Source: an uncultured Mycoplasmatota bacterium (lineage in GTDB: Bacteria > Bacillota_I > Bacilli_A > RF39 > UBA660). From it: a DNA stretch of 63,221 nucleotides. The position numbers were made by a program, and so were the translations under genes. The notes beneath the pieces are model-generated. The model was not told the origin of the DNA. It saw only the letters and a list, made by a program, of their open reading frames with translations, and did not search any database. Shown here piece by piece: positions 13,632 to 21,418 of this stretch. Every line of letters begins with the position of its first letter. The first letter of the stretch is position 1. The stretch is taken from NCBI GenBank assembly GCA_946554325.1, contig CAMNSB010000001.1:1-63221 (forward strand), given 5' to 3'.

Positions 13632-14375
13632 ATGAATATAACTAAAATAAAAGGAGAATTAATTAGTCAAAAAGAATCAAAGTTTAAAGGAAATATATAT
13701 CATTATTCACAAGTTAATTTTTCCTATAATTCAAATAAGATAGAAGGTAGCAGGTTAACCAGTGATCAGACTGAAGCCATATTTGATACTTCATCTTTTA
13801 TTCCTAAGAGTGATGATTTGATAAAATTAGATGATTTAACTGAATCTAAGAATCATTTTAAATTATTTGATTATATGTTAGATAATGTTGATAATAAGTT
13901 ATCTAAAGAAATGATTATCAAAATGAATAAGATATTAAAAAGAAATACTAGTGATGAAGAAAATCCTAGATATAATGTTGGAGGATTTAAAATAGTTCCT
14001 AATATGATAGGTCTTGTTAATGTTATTAATACAACTGCACCAGAAGATGTAGAAAAAGAAATTGATAAATTAGTTTTTGAATATAATGCAAAAACTAATA
14101 TTACTTTAGAAGATATTATTGATTTTCATTATAAATTTGAGAAAATTCATCCCTTTGGAGATGGAAATGGAAGAGTTGGTAGAATTATAATGTTTAAGGA
14201 ATGCCTAAGAAATAATATTATGCCATTTATTGTATTAGATGATGACAAACCTTATTATATGAGAGGTTTAAAAGAATATGAAAATGATAAAATGTTTTTA
14301 ATTGATACTATTAAACATGAACAAGACTTATATGAAAAGATTTGTGAGGAATTATTAAATTTTGAAATACAATAA
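13632..14375 (+). CDS. Fic/DOC family protein (putative AMPylase)
   Basis: Canonical Fic motif HPFGDGNGRVGR. Confidence 0.9.
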   Translation: MNITKIKGELISQKESKFKGNIYHYSQVNFSYNSNKIEGSRLTSDQTEAIFDTSSFIPKSDDLIKLDDLTESKNHFKLFDYMLDNVDNKLSKEMIIKMNKILKRNTSDEENPRYNVGGFKIVPNMIGLVNVINTTAPEDVEKEIDKLVFEYNAKTNITLEDIIDFHYKFEKIHPFGDGNGRVGRIIMFKECLRNNIMPFIVLDDDKPYYMRGLKEYENDKMFLIDTIKHEQDLYEKICEELLNFEIQ

Positions 14376-14402
14376 GATATTAATTTTAAGGGTGTTTTAT
14401 AC

Positions 14403-15311
14403 ATGGTAGATATTCATTCACATACTACATATTTTGATGGAAGTTCTAGTGTAGATGAACTTTTAAGTGAAGCACAAAAATTAAATTTGAGTTTGCTTTC
14501 AATAACTGATCATAATACAATACAAGCTCATTTTGAATTACAAAATTCTAATATAAGAGATAGGTTTAAAGGAGAAATAATATCAGGAATTGAAATAACT
14601 ACAACTTACAAGGGAGAAACAATAGGGGTATTAGGTTATGGTTTTGATTTAGAAACTATGCAGAAATTTTTAGATGCTAATGTACTTTCATTTGGACAAA
14701 AACAAATAAAAGAATATGATCTAATAAAAAATAGGTATAATGCCATAGGAGTAATATTTGATGAAAATAATATTAAATTTGATCCAAAAGTTGAATCTTG
14801 TAGACCAGCATTTGCTATTGAAATAAAAAAACATCCTGAAAATTATAAATTTTTCTTAAATCAAGAATCGATAAATACAGCTAGTGGATTTACTAGGAAT
14901 GAAGTATATAATCCTAAAAGTCCATTATATGTTGATGAATCATCATTGTTTCCTAGCTTAGAAACAGCAATACAAATGATACATAATTCAGGAGGACTTG
15001 CCTTTTTAGCACATACTTTTGCTTATTCTCCTAATATAGCAAATGAGTTGTTAAATATAATAAATAATTATGAACTAGATGGATTGGAGTGTTTTTATAC
15101 AACTTTTACAAAAGAACAATCTGATTATTTAGTAAGTGTTTGTAACGATAGAAAACTGTATATGAGTGGAGGTAGTGATTTTCATGGAACTAGAAAAATA
15201 AATCATAACTTAGGTACTGGACAAGGTAATTTGCATATTGATGAGTCTGTTGTTGATAATTGGGTAAGTGATTATATATCATCATTTGATAGTGTTAAAA
15301 ATATTAAGTAA
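14403..15311 (+). CDS. PHP-domain metal-dependent phosphoesterase
   Basis: VDIHSHTTYFDGS, SITDHNT and GGSDFHG motifs. Confidence 0.85.
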   Translation: MVDIHSHTTYFDGSSSVDELLSEAQKLNLSLLSITDHNTIQAHFELQNSNIRDRFKGEIISGIEITTTYKGETIGVLGYGFDLETMQKFLDANVLSFGQKQIKEYDLIKNRYNAIGVIFDENNIKFDPKVESCRPAFAIEIKKHPENYKFFLNQESINTASGFTRNEVYNPKSPLYVDESSLFPSLETAIQMIHNSGGLAFLAHTFAYSPNIANELLNIINNYELDGLECFYTTFTKEQSDYLVSVCNDRKLYMSGGSDFHGTRKINHNLGTGQGNLHIDESVVDNWVSDYISSFDSVKNIK

Positions 15312-15765: not shown

Positions 15766-15942
15766 ATGGATAAGTACAAAATTAATTATATCTATAATAA
15801 AAATAATGATATAAATGATGTTTTTATAAAAGTTTTAAATAAGGAACTTAAAAAATATATCCAAATGATTTGTAAAAATGAAAATTGTGAGGTACCATCA
15901 TCATGTACTTATTTATCTCAAGAAAGGAGAAAAAGTTGTTAG
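15766..15942 (+). CDS. Small hypothetical protein overlapping the recombinase start (possible accessory or directionality factor)
   Basis: GAGGTG RBS before ATG 15766. 58 aa. No recognised motif. Confidence 0.3.
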   Translation: MDKYKINYIYNKNNDINDVFIKVLNKELKKYIQMICKNENCEVPSSCTYLSQERRKSC

Positions 15943-17498
15943 AGAGTTTAAATAAGATATATAATGTTGGACTTTATATAAGATTATCTAGGGAAGATGA
16001 TGATAAAACTTTAGAAAGTGAGAGTATTACAAATCAAAAGAGCTTATTACTTCAATATGTTAAAGAAAATAATTTAAGAGTATATGATATTTATATTGAT
16101 GATGGATATAGTGGAACAAATTTTGAAAGACCTGATTTTAATAGATTATTAACTGATATTGAATTAGGTAAAATAAATATGGTTATTACTAAGGATATGT
16201 CAAGACTTGGAAGAGATTATATTGGTACTGGTAATTTAATCGAAAAGTATTTTCCAGAACATAATGTTAGATATATAGCTGTTACTGATAATATAGATAC
16301 ATTTTTAGATAATTCTAATAATGACATTGCACCATTTAAAGCTATTATGAATGACATGTATGCTAAAGATATATCTAAAAAAATAAAATCTAGTTTAAAA
16401 GCAAAAATGAAAGAAGGAAAATGGGTTGGAGGAAGAACTCCGTTTGGATATGATCAAGATAAAGATAATAAAAATCATTTAGTAATAAATCCAGAACAAG
16501 CAATTGTTGTTAAAAGAATATTTGATATGTGTTTAGAAGGTTTATCATTCTTTAAAATAGCCAAACAACTTACAAATGAAGGAATAAAAACCCCAGCACA
16601 ATACTATAACTTTGAATGGAAAAATAACTACAATTTAAAATATGGAGAGTGGCATTCAAAAACCATAAGAGATATTTTAACTAATAGAATGTATATTGGT
16701 GATATGGTACAAAATAGAAGAAGTAAAGTTAATTATAAAGTGAAAAAAGTGATTAAAAATAATCCCAATGATTATATAGTTGTAGAAAATACTCATGAAG
16801 CAATTATAGATAAAGGAATATTTTATGAAGTTCAAAAAAGAATGCCTAAAAATAAGGGGCGAAATGAAAAAAAAGAGATTCATTTATTAGATGGGTTATT
16901 ATATTGTGGTAATTGTGGACATCGAATATCCATACAATCCAGAAGAAAAAAAGATAATAGATGTTATACAATTTGCAATTATTATAGGACTTATATGAAA
17001 CAAAAACTTTGTACAACTCATTCTAATAACTATGATGAATTAGAGAAAGTTATAATCAATTCATTAACTAATATCTGCTTAAATTATATTAATAAAGATA
17101 AAATTAAAAATAATGTATTAAATAATTTAACTGAAGATAATAAATTAAATAATAAAAAAGAGTTAGAAAGACTAACTAACGACATTAAGCAAATAAATGA
17201 TAATTTAGATATTATTTATATTGACAAGTTAAATAATAAAATAACTGAAGAACAATTTGAAAGGGTAAAAGTTAAGTTAGAAAATGAACTAAATATAAAA
17301 CAAAAAAGATATAATGAATTAAATAATAGTATTAATGATAATATTAATGAAGAATCTAAAAATAAAATGATTGTGAAATATATTAATAAGTTTTTATCTA
17401 TGAAAGAACCAAGTAGAGAATTAATAATTAATTTAATTGAAAGAATTGAAATATTTGAAGATAAAACTATAAATATAAAAGTTAGTTTTAGCAAATAA
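15936..17498 (+). CDS. Large serine recombinase (resolvase catalytic domain + recombinase domain + zinc ribbon + coiled coil)
   Basis: YIRLSREDDD...SITNQ catalytic region and CGNCGH...C..CNYY zinc ribbon. The TTG at 15936 follows an AAGGAG RBS; the ATG at 15903 is an alternative start. Confidence 0.9.
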   Translation: MLESLNKIYNVGLYIRLSREDDDKTLESESITNQKSLLLQYVKENNLRVYDIYIDDGYSGTNFERPDFNRLLTDIELGKINMVITKDMSRLGRDYIGTGNLIEKYFPEHNVRYIAVTDNIDTFLDNSNNDIAPFKAIMNDMYAKDISKKIKSSLKAKMKEGKWVGGRTPFGYDQDKDNKNHLVINPEQAIVVKRIFDMCLEGLSFFKIAKQLTNEGIKTPAQYYNFEWKNNYNLKYGEWHSKTIRDILTNRMYIGDMVQNRRSKVNYKVKKVIKNNPNDYIVVENTHEAIIDKGIFYEVQKRMPKNKGRNEKKEIHLLDGLLYCGNCGHRISIQSRRKKDNRCYTICNYYRTYMKQKLCTTHSNNYDELEKVIINSLTNICLNYINKDKIKNNVLNNLTEDNKLNNKKELERLTNDIKQINDNLDIIYIDKLNNKITEEQFERVKVKLENELNIKQKRYNELNNSINDNINEESKNKMIVKYINKFLSMKEPSRELIINLIERIEIFEDKTINIKVSFSK

Positions 17499-17776: not shown

Positions 17777-17980
17777 GTGATCTATCCATCTATTGATAAA
17801 TTACTACTTGTTGTAGAGTCAAAATATGAACTAGTACATATTGCTGCTAGAAGAAGTAAGGAAATGTCAAAAACTGGGCATAATCAAATGACTAGTGCTG
17901 ACTATAAATGTACAAAGAATATTGGGAGAGCTCTAGAAGAAGTTGCAGAAGGCCTAATTACGATCGAGAGAAAGTCTTAG
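17777..17980 (+). CDS. rpoZ: DNA-directed RNA polymerase subunit omega
   Basis: IYPSIDKLLLVVESKYELVHIAARRSKEM matches the RpoZ N-terminal pattern. GTG start. Confidence 0.85.
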   Translation: MIYPSIDKLLLVVESKYELVHIAARRSKEMSKTGHNQMTSADYKCTKNIGRALEEVAEGLITIERKS

Positions 17981-20154: not shown

Positions 20155-20235
20155 ATGGGTAACTATGTATCATCGTCAGCAATCGTTTTAGTATTATTTA
20201 TTCTTTTAATTATTATTCTAGGTGCTTATATATAA
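20155..20235 (+). CDS. YjcZ-like tiny sporulation membrane protein (26 aa: MGNYVSSSAIVLVLFILLIIILGAYI)
   Basis: Strong AAGGAGG RBS. The LVLFILLIIILGA core matches the YjcZ family pattern. Too short for the ORF track. Confidence 0.6.
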   Translation: MGNYVSSSAIVLVLFILLIIILGAYI

Positions 20236-20258
20236 TTTAATTTAAGGAGGTGTTAACT

Positions 20259-20384
20259 ATGTCATGTGGTGAAGTACATAATACTACAACTACTTGTTGC
20301 CACCAAGGTGGTAGAAGTGGGTATATCATCATCATTGTTTTATATATCTTACTTGCTATTATTTTAGGTAGTGCAATTTGCTAA
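20259..20384 (+). CDS. YjcZ-like tiny membrane protein (41 aa, Cys/His-rich N-terminus + IIIIVLYILLAIILGS)
   Basis: AAGGAGG RBS. Tandem to the previous micro-ORF, with a terminator-like hairpin after the stop. Confidence 0.5.
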   Translation: MSCGEVHNTTTTCCHQGGRSGYIIIIVLYILLAIILGSAIC

Positions 20385-20646
20385 TTACACTGCTTGTGGA
20401 AGATAGGACTTTGATTCTTATCTTTTTTTGTATATTAGGCACGTATCTTCTGTGAGATTTAGGGTGAATCCATATCTTGCTTTAAAGTTCATCGTGTTAA
20501 TAGATGGATGATCGTAAAATTCAAGCATTTAAGAATTGTATTTTAATATTTGTTGTGATATAGTGTATGTAGTGAAGGATAACTTCATAAAATAAAAATG
20601 GAATGCTTATCCCCCTGAGGTTAGGCTTTCCACATTCTGTGTTTTG

Positions 20647-20692
20647 CCTAATCACTGTTAGAGATTTTTGTGATTAGGTCTTTTCTTTTTTT
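20647..20692 (+). terminator. Intrinsic terminator inside the 231-bp element, plus strand only
   Basis: CCTAATCAC ... GTGATTAGG stem followed by TCTTTTCTTTTTTT. Confidence 0.7.
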
Positions 20693-20765
20693 CACGAACT
20701 ATTTCTAGTATCGTTTGTAACAATGAATTAATTTCTTTTGGAAGTACTAAAACAAATAATTCCAT
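20658..20765 (-). CDS. Candidate 35-aa peptide MELFVLVLPKEINSLLQTILEIVREKKKRPNHKNL
   Basis: ATG lies 7 nt after GAGG. The ORF sits entirely inside the inverted-repeat element. Too short to be supported by statistics. Confidence 0.3.
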   Translation of the reverse strand: MELFVLVLPKEINSLLQTILEIVREKKKRPNHKNL

Positions 20766-20917
20766 AGTACCGCCTCTTTTTGGGGACTGAACCCCAAAGT
20801 TGAGGTGGAAGGCCTAACCATAAGCATTCCTACCTTATTATTAGCTAAAAGTTTTAAAAATCAGAGGAATTTTAAAATATATTTTTATTTTTTGGAAAAA
20901 CTAAAACTGGTGATACT

Positions 20918-21418
20918 ATGTTTTATTATCTTAATACATTTTTGATTTATTCAATGCTTGGATTTTTAATGGAGACTACTCTTAAAACATTTTTCTTTTC
21001 TTCTATGAATAATGGGATATTGATGGGACCATGGATTCCTGTTTATGGATTTGGTGTTGCTATTATTGTTTTTATTACTCGTTATGTTTTTCATCATAGC
21101 AATCGGAAAGTCCCTAGATGGTTAAAATTATTTATTATTTTTATGACAGTTTTTGTAATTCTTACTGTTTTAGAACTGATTGGCGGTATTATTATTGAAA
21201 AGCTTTTTCATAAAGTATTTTGGGATTATACCAATTTCAAATTTCACTTTGGTCATTATATTTCACTTGAAATGAGTGCATTATGGGGAGTTCTTTCTAT
21301 TTTCTTTTTATATCTTGTCAAACCTTGGATGGATAAAATTATAAAAAAAATACCAAAGTGGCTAACCATTTTCGTATTTCTTGCCTTTTTAGTTGATGTC
21401 TTTATTACTTTTCTGTAA
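20918..21418 (+). CDS. Multi-pass membrane protein, putative ABC-transporter type IV (CmpB-like) family
   Basis: YSMLGFLMETT...GPWIPVYGFG pattern. A paralogue lies at 37329..37967. Confidence 0.55.
   Translation: MFYYLNTFLIYSMLGFLMETTLKTFFFSSMNNGILMGPWIPVYGFGVAIIVFITRYVFHHSNRKVPRWLKLFIIFMTVFVILTVLELIGGIIIEKLFHKVFWDYTNFKFHFGHYISLEMSALWGVLSIFFLYLVKPWMDKIIKKIPKWLTIFVFLAFLVDVFITFL

What the first reader, a model, noticed from the sequence alone, without database searches (positions are those of the whole stretch)
20600..20830. 231-bp locus closed by a 26-bp long-range helix, with a 35-codon ORF and a convergent terminated antisense unit (type I toxin-antitoxin-like or novel structured RNA)
20600-20610 and 20619-20633 are complementary to 20820-20830 and 20805-20819 (11 + 15 bp, with an 8-nt CCCCCTGA bulge). 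On the minus strand the unit starts GGAAUGCUUAU just after an AT-rich TAATAAT -10-like box. It contains the hairpin UUGGGG-UUCAGU-CCCCAA and a GAGG Shine-Dalgarno 7 nt before an ATG. The ORF reads MELFVLVLPKEINSLLQTILEIVREKKKRPNHKNL (hydrophobic head, Lys-rich tail). The transcript ends with the 3' arm followed by AUUUUUAUUUUAU. The 5' and 3' ends can therefore lock together, as in hok- or aapA-type toxin mRNAs. The SD region GAGGCGG can alternatively pair with CCACCUC of the 5' arm, which makes the two conformations mutually exclusive. On the plus strand, a second unit begins with the same GGAATGCTTAT...GGTTAGGCTTTCCAC sequence after a TAAAAT box. It stops at a strong plus-only terminator (20647-20692) that overlaps the ORF's last codons. 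The result would be an RNA of about 90 nt, fully antisense to the mRNA 3' end, the arrangement seen in the Bacillota type I systems bsrG/SR4 and txpA/RatA. Nothing in the ORF track explains this region.
Basis: partly seen in the sequence, partly recalled or inferred. Interest (0 to 1): 0.65.

Follow-up and report, generated by a model that had tools for sequence, protein, structure and literature searches.

The report
Candidate small toxin–antisense RNA module
A roughly 300-bp stretch between two genes of an uncultured gut bacterium is conserved and highly structured, and looks like a small peptide gene held in check by an overlapping antisense RNA (a type I toxin-antitoxin-like module); nobody has yet shown that either strand is transcribed or that the peptide is toxic.

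Summary
The fold is far stronger than shuffles (z -6.2 and -7.5).

There is no Rfam hit, no second copy anywhere searched, and no homologue of the peptide. A sister species (L055) carries the same module at the same site. It is 87% identical there, against 62% at four-fold sites of the neighbouring gene and 50% in the flank, so it is under selection.

The arm substitutions keep the helix only on the minus strand. The terminator and the next hairpin show compensatory changes valid only on the plus strand. Both strands therefore look functional, as expected for a convergent mRNA/antisense pair.

The module replaced a DUF3419 gene and reuses its promoter and ribosome-binding region.

Best reading (confidence about 0.5): a new type I toxin-antitoxin-like locus. 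It combines a hok/aapA-style 5'-3' lock with a Bacillota-style 3'-overlapping antisense RNA.

Weak points: the peptide is amphipathic rather than clearly transmembrane, the ORF is absent from a third species, there are only two full homologues, and there are no expression or toxicity data.

The parts
20536..20564 (+). Predicted promoter of the antisense RNA: -35 TTGTAT (20536-41), 17-nt spacer, extended -10 TGaTATAGT (20556-64).
   Evidence: Read. Both hexamers and the TG are identical in L055, and the segment is 93% identical, while the 16 nt upstream are only 56% identical. The consensus scanner did not list it because the -35 matches only 3 of 6. Function is inferred.
20571..20692 (+). Predicted antisense sRNA of about 122 nt (about 93 nt if it starts at G20600 after the TAAAAT box). 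It contains a 5' hairpin (20573-87), an AU-rich linker, a copy of the arm sequence with a C-rich CCCCCUGA loop, and terminator T2.
   Evidence: Consensus fold with L055. It is perfectly complementary to the last 11 codons and the 3' UTR/3' arm of the minus-strand RNA. Transcription is not shown.
20600..20633 (.). Left arm, GGAATGCTTAT-CCCCCTGA-GGTTAGGCTTTCCAC. On the minus-strand RNA this is the 3' arm.
   Evidence: It is 97% identical in L055.
20646..20692 (+). Intrinsic terminator T2: a 10-bp stem, a 14-nt loop and a U-run. It works only on the plus strand.
   Evidence: The stems are invariant in L055 while the loop varies. In L015 one pair is compensated (C-G to U-A) and one becomes U.G, which is valid only on the plus strand.
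20694..20714 (.). Hairpin 2 (ACGAACUA-UUUC-UAGUAUCGU). It lies inside a 57-nt block that is identical between the window and L055.
   Evidence: L015 has a compensatory G-C to A-U change and a C-G to U.G change. Its role is unknown.
20658..20765 (-). 35-codon ORF, MELFVLVLPKEINSLLQTILEIVREKKKRPNHKNL: the candidate toxin or small protein.
   Evidence: L055 keeps it as a 38-aa ORF. pN/pS is 0.27, based on only 6 changes. It has no homologues. It forms an amphipathic helix followed by a Lys/Arg tail.
20766..20804 (-). Translation-initiation region. It holds the SD GAGG (20773-76) and the hairpin UUGGGG-UUCAGU-CCCCAA (20780-97). The anti-SD CUC of CCACCUC lies at 20802-20808, overlapping the right arm. 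This is the most variable part of the module both within and between species.
20805..20830 (.). Right arm, GTGGAAGGCCTAACC-ATAAGCATTCC. On the minus-strand RNA this is the 5' arm. Its outer 11 nt align with the SD and ATG of the DUF3419 gene of sister species.
   Evidence: The L055 substitutions keep the helix on the minus strand (dG -35.5 to -33.5 kcal/mol) but weaken it on the plus strand (-39.4 to -26.9).
20831..20876 (-). Upstream region of the minus-strand unit, with a -10-like AATAAT/TAATAAT at 20837-43. It is inherited from the DUF3419 promoter region.
   Evidence: BLAST homology of 20835-20920 to the region upstream of DUF3419 in L052 and L017 (alignment). 20831-43 is conserved in L055 and the rest is about 50% identical.
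20587..20599 (-). U-run (AUUUUUAUUUUAU) that follows the 3' arm on the minus-strand RNA. It is the presumed termination site of the roughly 243-nt mRNA.
   Evidence: kept in L055. By analogy with aapA1, where the 5'-3' helix acts as the terminator (PMC5416894). Inferred.
20421..20519 (-). Remnant of the last 33 codons of a DUF3419 gene. It marks the left edge of the replacement.
   Evidence: tblastn, 55% identity, E = 4e-9 against the L052 DUF3419 protein; DNA homology.

Best explanation
The locus is a chromosomal type I toxin-antitoxin-like module: two convergent, overlapping transcription units.

1. Minus-strand mRNA. An mRNA of about 243 nt starts near G20830, driven by the promoter left behind by a deleted DUF3419 gene. 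It carries a 35-codon ORF for an amphipathic peptide with a cationic tail.

2. The 5'-3' lock. The first 26 nt of this mRNA pair with its last 34 nt. The closing helix is followed by a U-run and so probably also serves as the terminator. The CUC next to the 5' arm stacks onto the helix by pairing with the GAG of the SD. Full-length mRNA is therefore predicted to be compact, stable and poorly translated.

3. Plus-strand antisense RNA. A conserved promoter (20536-64) and a strong terminator (20646-92) would give an antisense RNA of about 90-120 nt. It is fully complementary to the mRNA's last 11 codons, 3' UTR and 3' arm.

4. Proposed interplay. The antisense RNA contains the same sequence as the mRNA's 5' arm, so it should compete with that arm for the 3' arm. 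The result would be a duplex longer than 90 bp (an RNase III substrate). The freed 5' arm would fold locally, and its CCUC would fully pair with the SD.

Shown here: the sequence features, purifying selection on the module, and strand-specific structural conservation.

Inferred only: transcription, termination, the antisense mechanism and peptide toxicity.
For: - Structure: the arms and the fold are real and far beyond chance.
- Conservation: the module 20536-20830 is 87% identical (261 of 300 columns) in sister species L055. Four-fold sites of the adjacent CmpB gene are 62% identical and the flank 20831-76 is 50% identical (Fisher p = 6e-5 and 6e-8).
- Minus-strand helix: the three arm changes in L055 give U.G pairs, repair the C.A mismatch, or add a bulged U on the minus strand. 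The duplex energy is -35.5 versus -33.5 kcal/mol there. On the plus strand the same changes break pairs (-39.4 versus -26.9).
- Plus-strand terminator: its stems are invariant in L055 while its loop varies. In L015 it shows a compensatory pair and a U.G wobble that is valid only on the plus strand.
- Promoter: both plus-strand hexamers are identical in L055, and conservation drops sharply just upstream.
- Sequence beyond the sRNA terminator: 20693-20765 lies outside the predicted sRNA but is 92% identical (p = 7e-9), so the minus strand, or read-through, must be constrained too.
- ORF: the ATG, the SD (GAGG, or GGAGG in L055 and several strains) and the frame are kept in L055.
- SD occlusion: the SD is mostly paired in all predicted states, and fully paired (P unpaired = 0.0) when the 3' arm is removed or occupied.
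- Peptide: hydrophobic moment 0.67, a best 18-residue Kyte-Doolittle window of 1.4-1.9 (AapA1 gives 1.47), and net charge +3 with a Lys/Arg tail.
- Literature: the 5'-3' end-pairing in aapA1 sequesters the SD and acts as the terminator (PMC5416894). A 3'-overlapping antisense RNA that also closes the SD is described for bsrG/SR4 (PMC8309996).
- Location and composition: a single copy in a variable hot spot, which is typical of chromosomal type I loci. GC content peaks locally at 36% against about 28%.
Against: - There are no transcription, processing or toxicity data.
- The peptide lacks a clean stretch of 18-20 hydrophobic residues (E2, K10, E11, N13, S14, Q17, T18 and E21 interrupt it).
- The peptide has no homologue among 1.84 billion representatives, in Pfam or in NCBIfam.
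- Only two species carry the whole module, so no fully compensatory pair supports the long-range helix.
- L015 keeps the terminator and hairpin 2 but has no arms, no SD-ATG and no ORF.
- Coding selection is not demonstrable: 3 synonymous against 3 non-synonymous changes, both within-species ORF polymorphisms are non-synonymous, and the last two codons are frameshifted in L055.
- The apical hairpin 20780-97 is not conserved (57% identity).
- The minus-strand -35 is poor, and the plus-strand -35 matches only 3 of 6.
- The predicted SD accessibility differs only slightly between conformers.
Confidence: 0.5

Rival explanations
1. The locus is a conserved sense/antisense RNA pair without a toxin. 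The functional products would be one or two structured small RNAs. One candidate is a trans-acting plus-strand sRNA whose C-rich CCCCCUGA loop binds SD-like sequences elsewhere. The minus-strand RNA could be a non-coding partner or sponge, or could encode a harmless small protein. The ORF would be incidental or non-toxic.
For: ORF third positions are over-conserved (2 of 33 changed, against 46 of 167 in CmpB; p = 0.007), and pS is 0.14 against 0.38 at neutral sites, so the constraint is largely at the nucleotide level. The peptide is not clearly transmembrane and is an orphan. L015 keeps only plus-strand structures. The promoter and terminator of the plus-strand unit are the best-supported signals.
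Against: The SD, the ATG and 33 codons in frame are kept over about 38% neutral divergence. The long-range helix is maintained specifically on the ORF-bearing strand and stacks on the SD. The overall layout matches known type I systems feature by feature.
Confidence: 0.27
2. The locus is an evolutionary scar. The arms would be an inverted duplication, for example from template switching, created when the DUF3419 gene was deleted. The terminator would be an orphan left over from a lost upstream gene (as in L015). The ORF would be a chance product with no function.
For: The module sits exactly between the 3' remnant and the 5' region of DUF3419. The outer right arm aligns with the old SD-ATG. 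T2 terminates a 110-aa ORF in L015. The ORF's start lies in window-specific sequence, while its 3' two-thirds align to non-coding DNA of L015.
Against: The 87% identity, against 50-62% at neutral sites in a species pair whose coding DNA is 80.8% identical, cannot be explained without selection. The substitutions in the arms and the terminator preserve structure in a strand-specific way. An origin as a scar does not exclude later function.
Confidence: 0.1
3. The locus is a miniature inverted-repeat transposable element (MITE), or another small mobile element bounded by 26-bp terminal inverted repeats.
For: It has terminal inverted repeats and is about 230 bp long. It lies in a variable intergenic hot spot.
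Against: There is no second copy of the arms in the 63-kb window, in 185,579 species-representative genomes, in IMG/VR, in JGI metagenomes, or in plasmid and phage collections. The peptide is recorded only at this locus. There is no target-site duplication (AAAAT versus TACCT). The interior is homologous to L015, which lacks the arms, and the outer right arm is ancestral local sequence. Caveat: the host genome outside the window could not be searched.
Confidence: 0.03
4. The locus is an invertible DNA switch (inverton). A recombinase would flip the 231-bp segment between the arms, swapping which strand the two outside promoters transcribe.
For: Inverted repeats flank a short segment, promoter-like sequences lie just outside both arms, and a serine recombinase gene lies 3 kb upstream.
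Against: All same-species contigs and L055 show the same orientation. The recombinase is a 531-aa large serine recombinase, the integrase type, not a small invertase. The wobble pattern indicates selection on an RNA helix, not on DNA sites.
Confidence: 0.03

Closest known systems
aapA1/IsoA1 (Helicobacter pylori) and hok/Sok (E. coli plasmid R1) type I toxin-antitoxin systems
   Same: A toxin mRNA of about 250 nt carries a small ORF. Its 5' and 3' ends pair over a long distance. This locks a conformation with the SD occluded and, in aapA1, also acts as the transcription terminator (PMC5416894). Here the helix is 11 + 15 bp, is followed by a U-run, and stacks on a CUC/GAG pairing with the SD. 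An upstream ORF that overlaps the start of the small ORF (20747-20827) recalls mok; this comparison rests on my own knowledge.
   Different: In those systems the antisense RNA covers the 5' UTR and translation-initiation region. Here it covers the 3' end. There is no sequence similarity to Hok or AapA. The host is a low-GC Bacilli lineage, not Proteobacteria or Campylobacterota. 3' processing has not been examined.
bsrG/SR4, txpA/RatA and related Bacillus subtilis type I systems
   Same: The genes are convergent, and the antisense RNA overlaps the 3' end of the toxin mRNA by about 100 nt or more. For SR4, the antisense RNA both triggers RNase III decay and tightens SD sequestration from a distance (PMC8309996). 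Here the overlap is 93-122 nt, and folding predicts full SD pairing once the 3' arm is occupied.
   Different: The toxins of those systems are clearly hydrophobic transmembrane peptides, whereas this peptide is amphipathic (the comparison sequences were recalled from memory). A 5'-3' closing helix in which the antisense RNA mimics the mRNA's 5' arm is not, to my knowledge, described for them. There is no sequence homology.
MITEs and other small elements bounded by terminal inverted repeats
   Same: The size is about 230 bp and the element has near-perfect terminal inverted repeats.
   Different: It is single copy, has no target-site duplication, has an interior shared with a relative that lacks the arms, and has one arm derived from local ancestral sequence.

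Membership tests
Type I toxin-antitoxin systems (general definition) | A small ORF (under 60 codons) with its own SD on a dedicated short mRNA | tested here: met
   A 35-codon ORF at 20658-20765 with GAGG 7 nt upstream of the ATG. It is kept as a 38-codon ORF with GGAGG in L055. The mRNA boundaries are inferred, not observed.
Type I toxin-antitoxin systems (general definition) | The toxin is a hydrophobic peptide with a predicted transmembrane alpha-helix (the membrane-associated class; PMC8309996) | tested here: inconclusive
   The best 18-residue Kyte-Doolittle window scores 1.42 (1.72 in the P9L variant, 1.89 in L055). AapA1 scores 1.47, and Fst, BsrG and TisB score 2.2-2.6. The hydrophobic moment is 0.67 and the tail is cationic. 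This describes an amphipathic helix rather than a classical transmembrane segment.
Type I toxin-antitoxin systems (general definition) | A cis-encoded antisense RNA gene with its own promoter and terminator that overlaps the toxin mRNA | tested here: met
   Sequence signals only. The promoter TTGTAT-17-TGaTATAGT (20536-64) has both hexamers conserved in L055. Terminator T2 has invariant stems in L055 and a compensatory pair in L015. Expression was not tested.
Type I toxin-antitoxin systems (general definition) | The toxin mRNA folds so that the SD is sequestered | tested here: met
   This is a prediction only. The mean probability of being unpaired over the SD-AUG stretch is about 0.35, and the GAGG itself is 0.0-0.5 unpaired in full-length RNA and 0.0 when the 3' arm is absent. 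The consensus fold pairs CUC with GAG.
Type I toxin-antitoxin systems (general definition) | The peptide is toxic when over-expressed, and the antisense RNA neutralises it | not testable with these tools
   This needs experiments. No expression data could be reached.
hok/Sok and aapA/IsoA families | Long-distance pairing of the 5' and 3' ends of the full-length mRNA | tested here: met
   A helix of 11 + 15 bp. It is maintained in L055 on the mRNA strand (dG -35.5 versus -33.5 kcal/mol).
hok/Sok and aapA/IsoA families | The antisense RNA is complementary to the 5' UTR or translation-initiation region | tested here: not met
   The predicted antisense unit ends at 20692 and covers only the 3' end of the ORF and the 3' UTR.
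hok/Sok and aapA/IsoA families | Sequence or profile similarity of the peptide to Hok or AapA | tested here: not met
   No Pfam or NCBIfam family matched at E up to 1 and 10 respectively. No homologue was found in 1.84 billion representative proteins.
Bacillota 3'-overlap type I systems (bsrG/SR4, txpA/RatA) | Convergent transcription with an antisense overlap of roughly 100 nt at the 3' end of the toxin mRNA | tested here: met
   The predicted overlap is 93-122 nt (from 20571 or 20600 to 20692). It rests on sequence signals only.
Bacillota 3'-overlap type I systems (bsrG/SR4, txpA/RatA) | Homology of the toxin to BsrG, TxpA or Fst-type peptides | tested here: not met
MITE | Multiple dispersed copies | tested here: not met
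   No further copies were found in the window, GTDB representative genomes, IMG/VR, JGI metagenomes, plasmids or phages. The peptide occurs only at this locus. The rest of the host genome was not available.
MITE | A target-site duplication flanking the terminal inverted repeats | tested here: not met
   The flanks are ...AAAAT | GGAATGC and GCATTCC | TACCT..., with no direct repeat.
Any Rfam RNA family | A covariance-model hit at or near the gathering score | tested here: not met
   There were no hits at gathering thresholds in the whole window. The best permissive hit in 20300-21100 scored 23 bits against a gathering score of 113.
Invertible promoter switch (inverton) | Both orientations of the IR-flanked segment are found in populations | tested here: not met
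   All assembled contigs of the species, and L055, have the same orientation. Read-level data were not available.

The most novel reading that the evidence does not exclude
The locus is a recently born type I toxin-antitoxin module, built from the wreck of a deleted housekeeping-type gene. The toxin mRNA reuses the dead gene's promoter and RBS as its 5' arm. A 3' arm evolved to lock that end. The antisense RNA works as a molecular mimic of the mRNA's own 5' arm and displaces it from the 3' arm. This would be a hybrid of the hok/aapA 5'-3' lock and the Bacillota 3'-antisense logic that has not been described. It would also be the first type I system in the uncultured, Mollicutes-like gut Bacilli.
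Probability: 0.2. Interest if true: 0.65.

Novelty: new member of a known kind. Interest (0 to 1): 0.45.

Why it matters
Type I toxin-antitoxin loci are very hard to find by homology, and they are essentially uncharted in the reduced-genome, uncultured gut Bacilli that are abundant in mouse and human microbiomes.

If this module is confirmed, it would add three things:
- a new toxin family;
- a worked example of how such a module can arise at a gene-loss scar by co-opting a leftover promoter and RBS;
- a variant mechanism in which the antisense RNA copies the mRNA's 5' arm.

If the peptide turns out not to be toxic, the locus is still a conserved, strongly structured sense/antisense RNA pair with no Rfam family.

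The practical reach is modest. The module is known from only two species, and the hosts are uncultured.

Tried and rejected
- Known RNA family: Rfam gave nothing at gathering thresholds, and only weak hits far below threshold in permissive mode.
- MITE or dispersed repeat: searches for the arm pattern and conserved blocks found nothing in the window, GTDB representative genomes, IMG/VR or JGI metagenomes; BLAST of the element against plasmid and phage records also found nothing.
- Peptide family: the exhaustive HMMER search found only the peptide's own P9L variant. Pfam and NCBIfam gave nothing.
- Diversity-generating retroelement: 6 of 7 within-species polymorphisms (20740-20788) fall on A of the minus strand. 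However, there is no second (template) copy in the window, no reverse transcriptase nearby, and the composition bias makes the pattern only marginal. Dropped.
- Retron msr/msd, IS-associated guide RNAs (IS605, IS110) and CRISPR: there is no reverse transcriptase, transposase or cas gene next to the locus. Rejected from context.
- 6S, SRP or another housekeeping RNA: rejected, because the element is absent from three of five congeneric species.
- Riboswitch or attenuator leader of the CmpB gene: unlikely. The terminator ends 226 nt before the CmpB start, and most relatives have only about 70-80 nt between the tiny-peptide gene and CmpB.
- ORF35 as a relic of an internal part of DUF3419: there is a 35% match over 20 aa, but E = 3.8, which is not significant.
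- Further homologues: an nhmmer profile built from the window plus L055 found only the L015 terminator among all fetched loci. CmpB homologues above 66% identity fall into only five species-level groups.
- Contig breaks as a sign of a repeat: the same-species contigs that end inside the intergenic region do so upstream of the element, not at it.
Full report
**1.

The sequence and the repeat finder confirm the two arm segments. 20600-20610 pairs with 20820-20830 (11 of 11). 20619-20633 pairs with 20805-20819 (15 positions, one of them T.G). They are separated on the left side by CCCCCTGA.

The 15-mer arm, allowing 2 mismatches, occurs only at these two sites in the 63-kb window, against 0.06 expected. 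The 11-mer with one mismatch is unremarkable on its own.

Both strands fold with the arms as the closing helix, and far better than dinucleotide shuffles. The minus strand gives -75.8 kcal/mol (z = -6.2). The plus strand gives -81.3 kcal/mol (z = -7.5). None of 200 shuffles did as well.

The other features are also as described:
- the hairpin at 20780-97;
- GAGG 7 nt before the ATG at 20765;
- the 35-codon ORF at 20658-20765;
- the U-run after the 3' arm;
- the plus-only terminator (stem 20646-55 / 20670-79, U-run to 20692).

The terminator was missed by the consensus scanner only because its loop is 14 nt. The segment is the local GC maximum, at 36% in a region of about 28%.

**2. What it is not**

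- Rfam gives nothing at gathering thresholds in the whole window, and only weak matches far below threshold in permissive mode.
- No second copy of the arms or the interior exists in any collection searched. These were the window, one genome for each of 185,579 species, IMG/VR, JGI metagenomes, and plasmid and phage records.
- There is no target-site duplication.
- The peptide has no relative among 1.84 billion representative proteins except its own P9L variant. It has no Pfam or NCBIfam match, and it is recorded only at this locus.
One caveat remains: the host genome outside the window could not be searched.

**3. Host and context**

The neighbouring genes are RecX, PrsA (minus strand), two tiny transmembrane peptide genes (26 aa and 41-44 aa; weak YjcZ_2 match), then the spacer, then a CmpB-type membrane protein, HIT, and the suf operon.

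Relatives are MAGs labelled 'uncultured Bacilli', 'Tenericutes' or 'Mycoplasma sp.' from mouse, rabbit and human gut.

The order PrsA, tiny peptides, CmpB, HIT is conserved across the clade. In most members the tiny-peptide gene ends only about 70-80 nt before CmpB.

Within the genus, that spacer is a hot spot with alternative contents:
- a DUF3419 gene on the minus strand in L016, L017 and L050-L054;
- a 110-aa orphan ORF on the plus strand in L015 and L058-L060;
- the present module in the window species (L001-L009; 98-100% identical) and in L055.

**4. Origin**

- Window 20421-20519 (minus strand) still encodes the last 33 residues of the DUF3419 protein (55% identity, E = 4e-9).
- 20835-20920 is homologous to the region upstream of DUF3419 and to the CmpB promoter of L052 and L017.
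- The outer right arm (ATAAGCATTCC, followed by CAT on the plus strand) aligns with the SD and start codon of DUF3419.
- About 300 nt (roughly 20520-20818) therefore replaced the DUF3419 coding sequence. The minus-strand unit starts from what was the DUF3419 promoter and RBS.
- Part of the interior (20643-20759: terminator T2, hairpin 2 and about 45 more nt) is shared with L015. There it follows the 110-aa ORF, and no arms, SD-ATG or ORF are present.
- Where the rest of the interior came from is unknown.
- By CmpB+HIT DNA identity, the window and L055 are not sister taxa within the genus (80.8%, against 83.4% for window versus L015). Either the module is old and was lost repeatedly, or it moved by homologous recombination.

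**5. It is under selection, on both strands**

Overall conservation. Between the window and L055, four-fold degenerate sites of CmpB are 62% identical (31 of 50), and the non-functional flank 20831-76 is 50% identical. The module 20536-20830 is 87% identical (261 of 300 columns). Fisher's test gives p = 6e-5 against the four-fold sites and p = 6e-8 against the flank.

Conservation is patterned, by segment:

| Segment | Identity |
|---|---|
| plus-strand promoter | 93% |
| left arm | 97% |
| terminator stems | 91-100% |
| terminator loop | 71% |
| ORF body | 92% |
| right arm | 89% |
| apical hairpin | 57% |

Arms. The three changes in the L055 arms turn U-A into U.G, turn C-G into U.G, repair the window's C.A mismatch to U-A, and add one bulged U. 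All of this holds when read on the minus strand. The duplex energy there is -35.5 versus -33.5 kcal/mol. On the plus strand the same changes create C.A mismatches, and the energy goes from -39.4 to -26.9.

Terminator and hairpin 2. The opposite is true here. In L015 each carries one fully compensated pair (C-G to U-A, and G-C to A-U) and one C-G to U.G change that pairs only on the plus strand.

Promoter. Both hexamers of the plus-strand promoter (TTGTAT, 17 nt, TGaTATAGT; 20536-64) are identical in L055, and identity collapses just upstream.

Sequence beyond the terminator. 20693-20765 lies beyond the plus-strand terminator yet is 92% identical (p = 7e-9). That calls for a minus-strand function (or for plus-strand read-through).

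Taken together, this is what a convergent, overlapping pair of functional transcripts would look like.

**6. The ORF**

L055 keeps the ATG, a stronger SD (GGAGG) and 33 codons in frame. A 1-nt deletion changes only the last two residues and adds three.

An upstream ATG, the old DUF3419 start, is fused in frame in L055, giving the 58-aa called gene. In the window it is out of frame and gives an overlapping 24- to 26-codon upstream ORF at 20747-20827. Only the 35-aa part is shared.

There are 3 synonymous and 3 non-synonymous changes (pN/pS 0.27, too few to test). Third positions are much more conserved than in CmpB (2 of 33 against 46 of 167; p = 0.007). RNA-level constraint therefore overlies any coding constraint.

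Within the species, all seven polymorphic sites of the module lie in 20740-20788. They cover the hairpin loop, the SD region and codons 2 and 9. They include GAGG to GGAGG, and both ORF changes are non-synonymous (E2V and P9L).

The peptide is predicted to be a strongly amphipathic helix (hydrophobic moment 0.67) with a cationic tail. Its best 18-residue hydrophobicity is 1.4-1.9, similar to AapA1 and below Fst, BsrG and TisB (the comparison sequences were recalled from memory).

**7. Proposed mechanism (inferred)**

The minus-strand mRNA of about 243 nt ends in its own 5'-3' helix followed by a U-run. In aapA1, exactly such an end-pairing sequesters the SD and also terminates transcription (PMC5416894).

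The SD is mostly paired in every predicted state. When the 3' arm is removed or occupied, the 5' arm folds on itself and its CCUC pairs completely with GAGG.

The antisense RNA (about 93-122 nt) is complementary to the last 11 codons, the 3' UTR and the 3' arm. It also carries the same sequence as the mRNA's 5' arm, so it should displace that arm. This is the logic described for SR4 acting on bsrG mRNA: binding at the 3' end, RNase III decay, and tighter SD sequestration (PMC8309996).

**8. Comparison and membership**

- In function the locus resembles hok/aapA (the 5'-3' lock) and the Bacillus 3'-overlap systems (the position of the antisense RNA).
- It is not a member of any of those families by sequence.
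- It fails the hok/aapA criterion that the antisense RNA overlaps the 5' end of the mRNA.
- It is best filed as a candidate new family within type I toxin-antitoxin systems.
- The defining functional tests, toxicity and antisense rescue, have not been done.

**9. Verdict**

A selected, strand-specifically structured sense/antisense module is well supported. 'Toxin' remains a hypothesis.
- Confidence in the type I TA-like reading is about 0.5.
- A non-toxic RNA pair or small-protein module gets about 0.27, a functionless scar about 0.1, and a MITE or an inverton about 0.03 each.
- Interest is 0.45. This is a neat, probably new member of a known class in an unexplored lineage, with an instructive origin, but it is known from only two uncultured species and lacks expression data.

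Noticed in passing
window 20155-20235 and 20250-20384 (+): Two tandem tiny transmembrane peptide genes (26 aa, MGNYVSSSAIVLVLFILLIIILGAYI, and 41-44 aa with a Cys-rich head) are followed by a terminator at about 20395-20429. They give a weak YjcZ_2 match and are conserved next to prsA across the whole clade.
   Followed up: partly
window 20385-20920 and loci L015, L016, L017, L050-L055: The spacer between the tiny-peptide genes and the CmpB gene is a hot spot for gene replacement within the genus. It holds a DUF3419 gene, a 110-aa orphan ORF, or the present module, while more distant relatives have only about 70-80 nt there.
   Followed up: partly
window 20740-20788: Within-species variation is concentrated here. 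Nine same-species contigs show seven polymorphic sites in these 49 nt and none in the rest of 20322-20917. Six of the seven fall on A of the minus strand. No template repeat exists in the window, so a diversity-generating retroelement seems unlikely, but the clustering is unexplained.
   Followed up: partly
L015 3476-3808 (+): A 110-aa ORF with no Pfam family occupies the hot spot in one sister species. It is terminated by the homologue of terminator T2. Its function and origin are unknown.
   Followed up: no
window 15903-17498 (+): A gene for a 531-aa large serine recombinase lies just upstream of a 67-codon ORF at 17777-17980 and of recX. By position that 67-codon ORF is probably the 67-aa RNA_pol_Rpb6 (rpoZ) gene seen upstream of recX in the same-species contigs L001 and L005, but this was not tested. 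Those contigs do not extend far enough to show whether the recombinase gene is present there. It may mark an integrated element.
   Followed up: no
window 13632-15311 (+): A 247-aa protein carries the Fic motif HPFGDGNGRVGR. The next gene encodes a 302-aa protein that I did not analyse. Both sit just upstream of the recombinase and may be cargo of the same element.
   Followed up: no
window 20668-20724: A 57-nt block is perfectly identical between the window and L055 despite about 38% neutral divergence. It spans the 3' half of terminator T2, its U-run and hairpin 2, which has a GAAA loop on the minus strand. The role of hairpin 2 is unexplained.
   Followed up: partly
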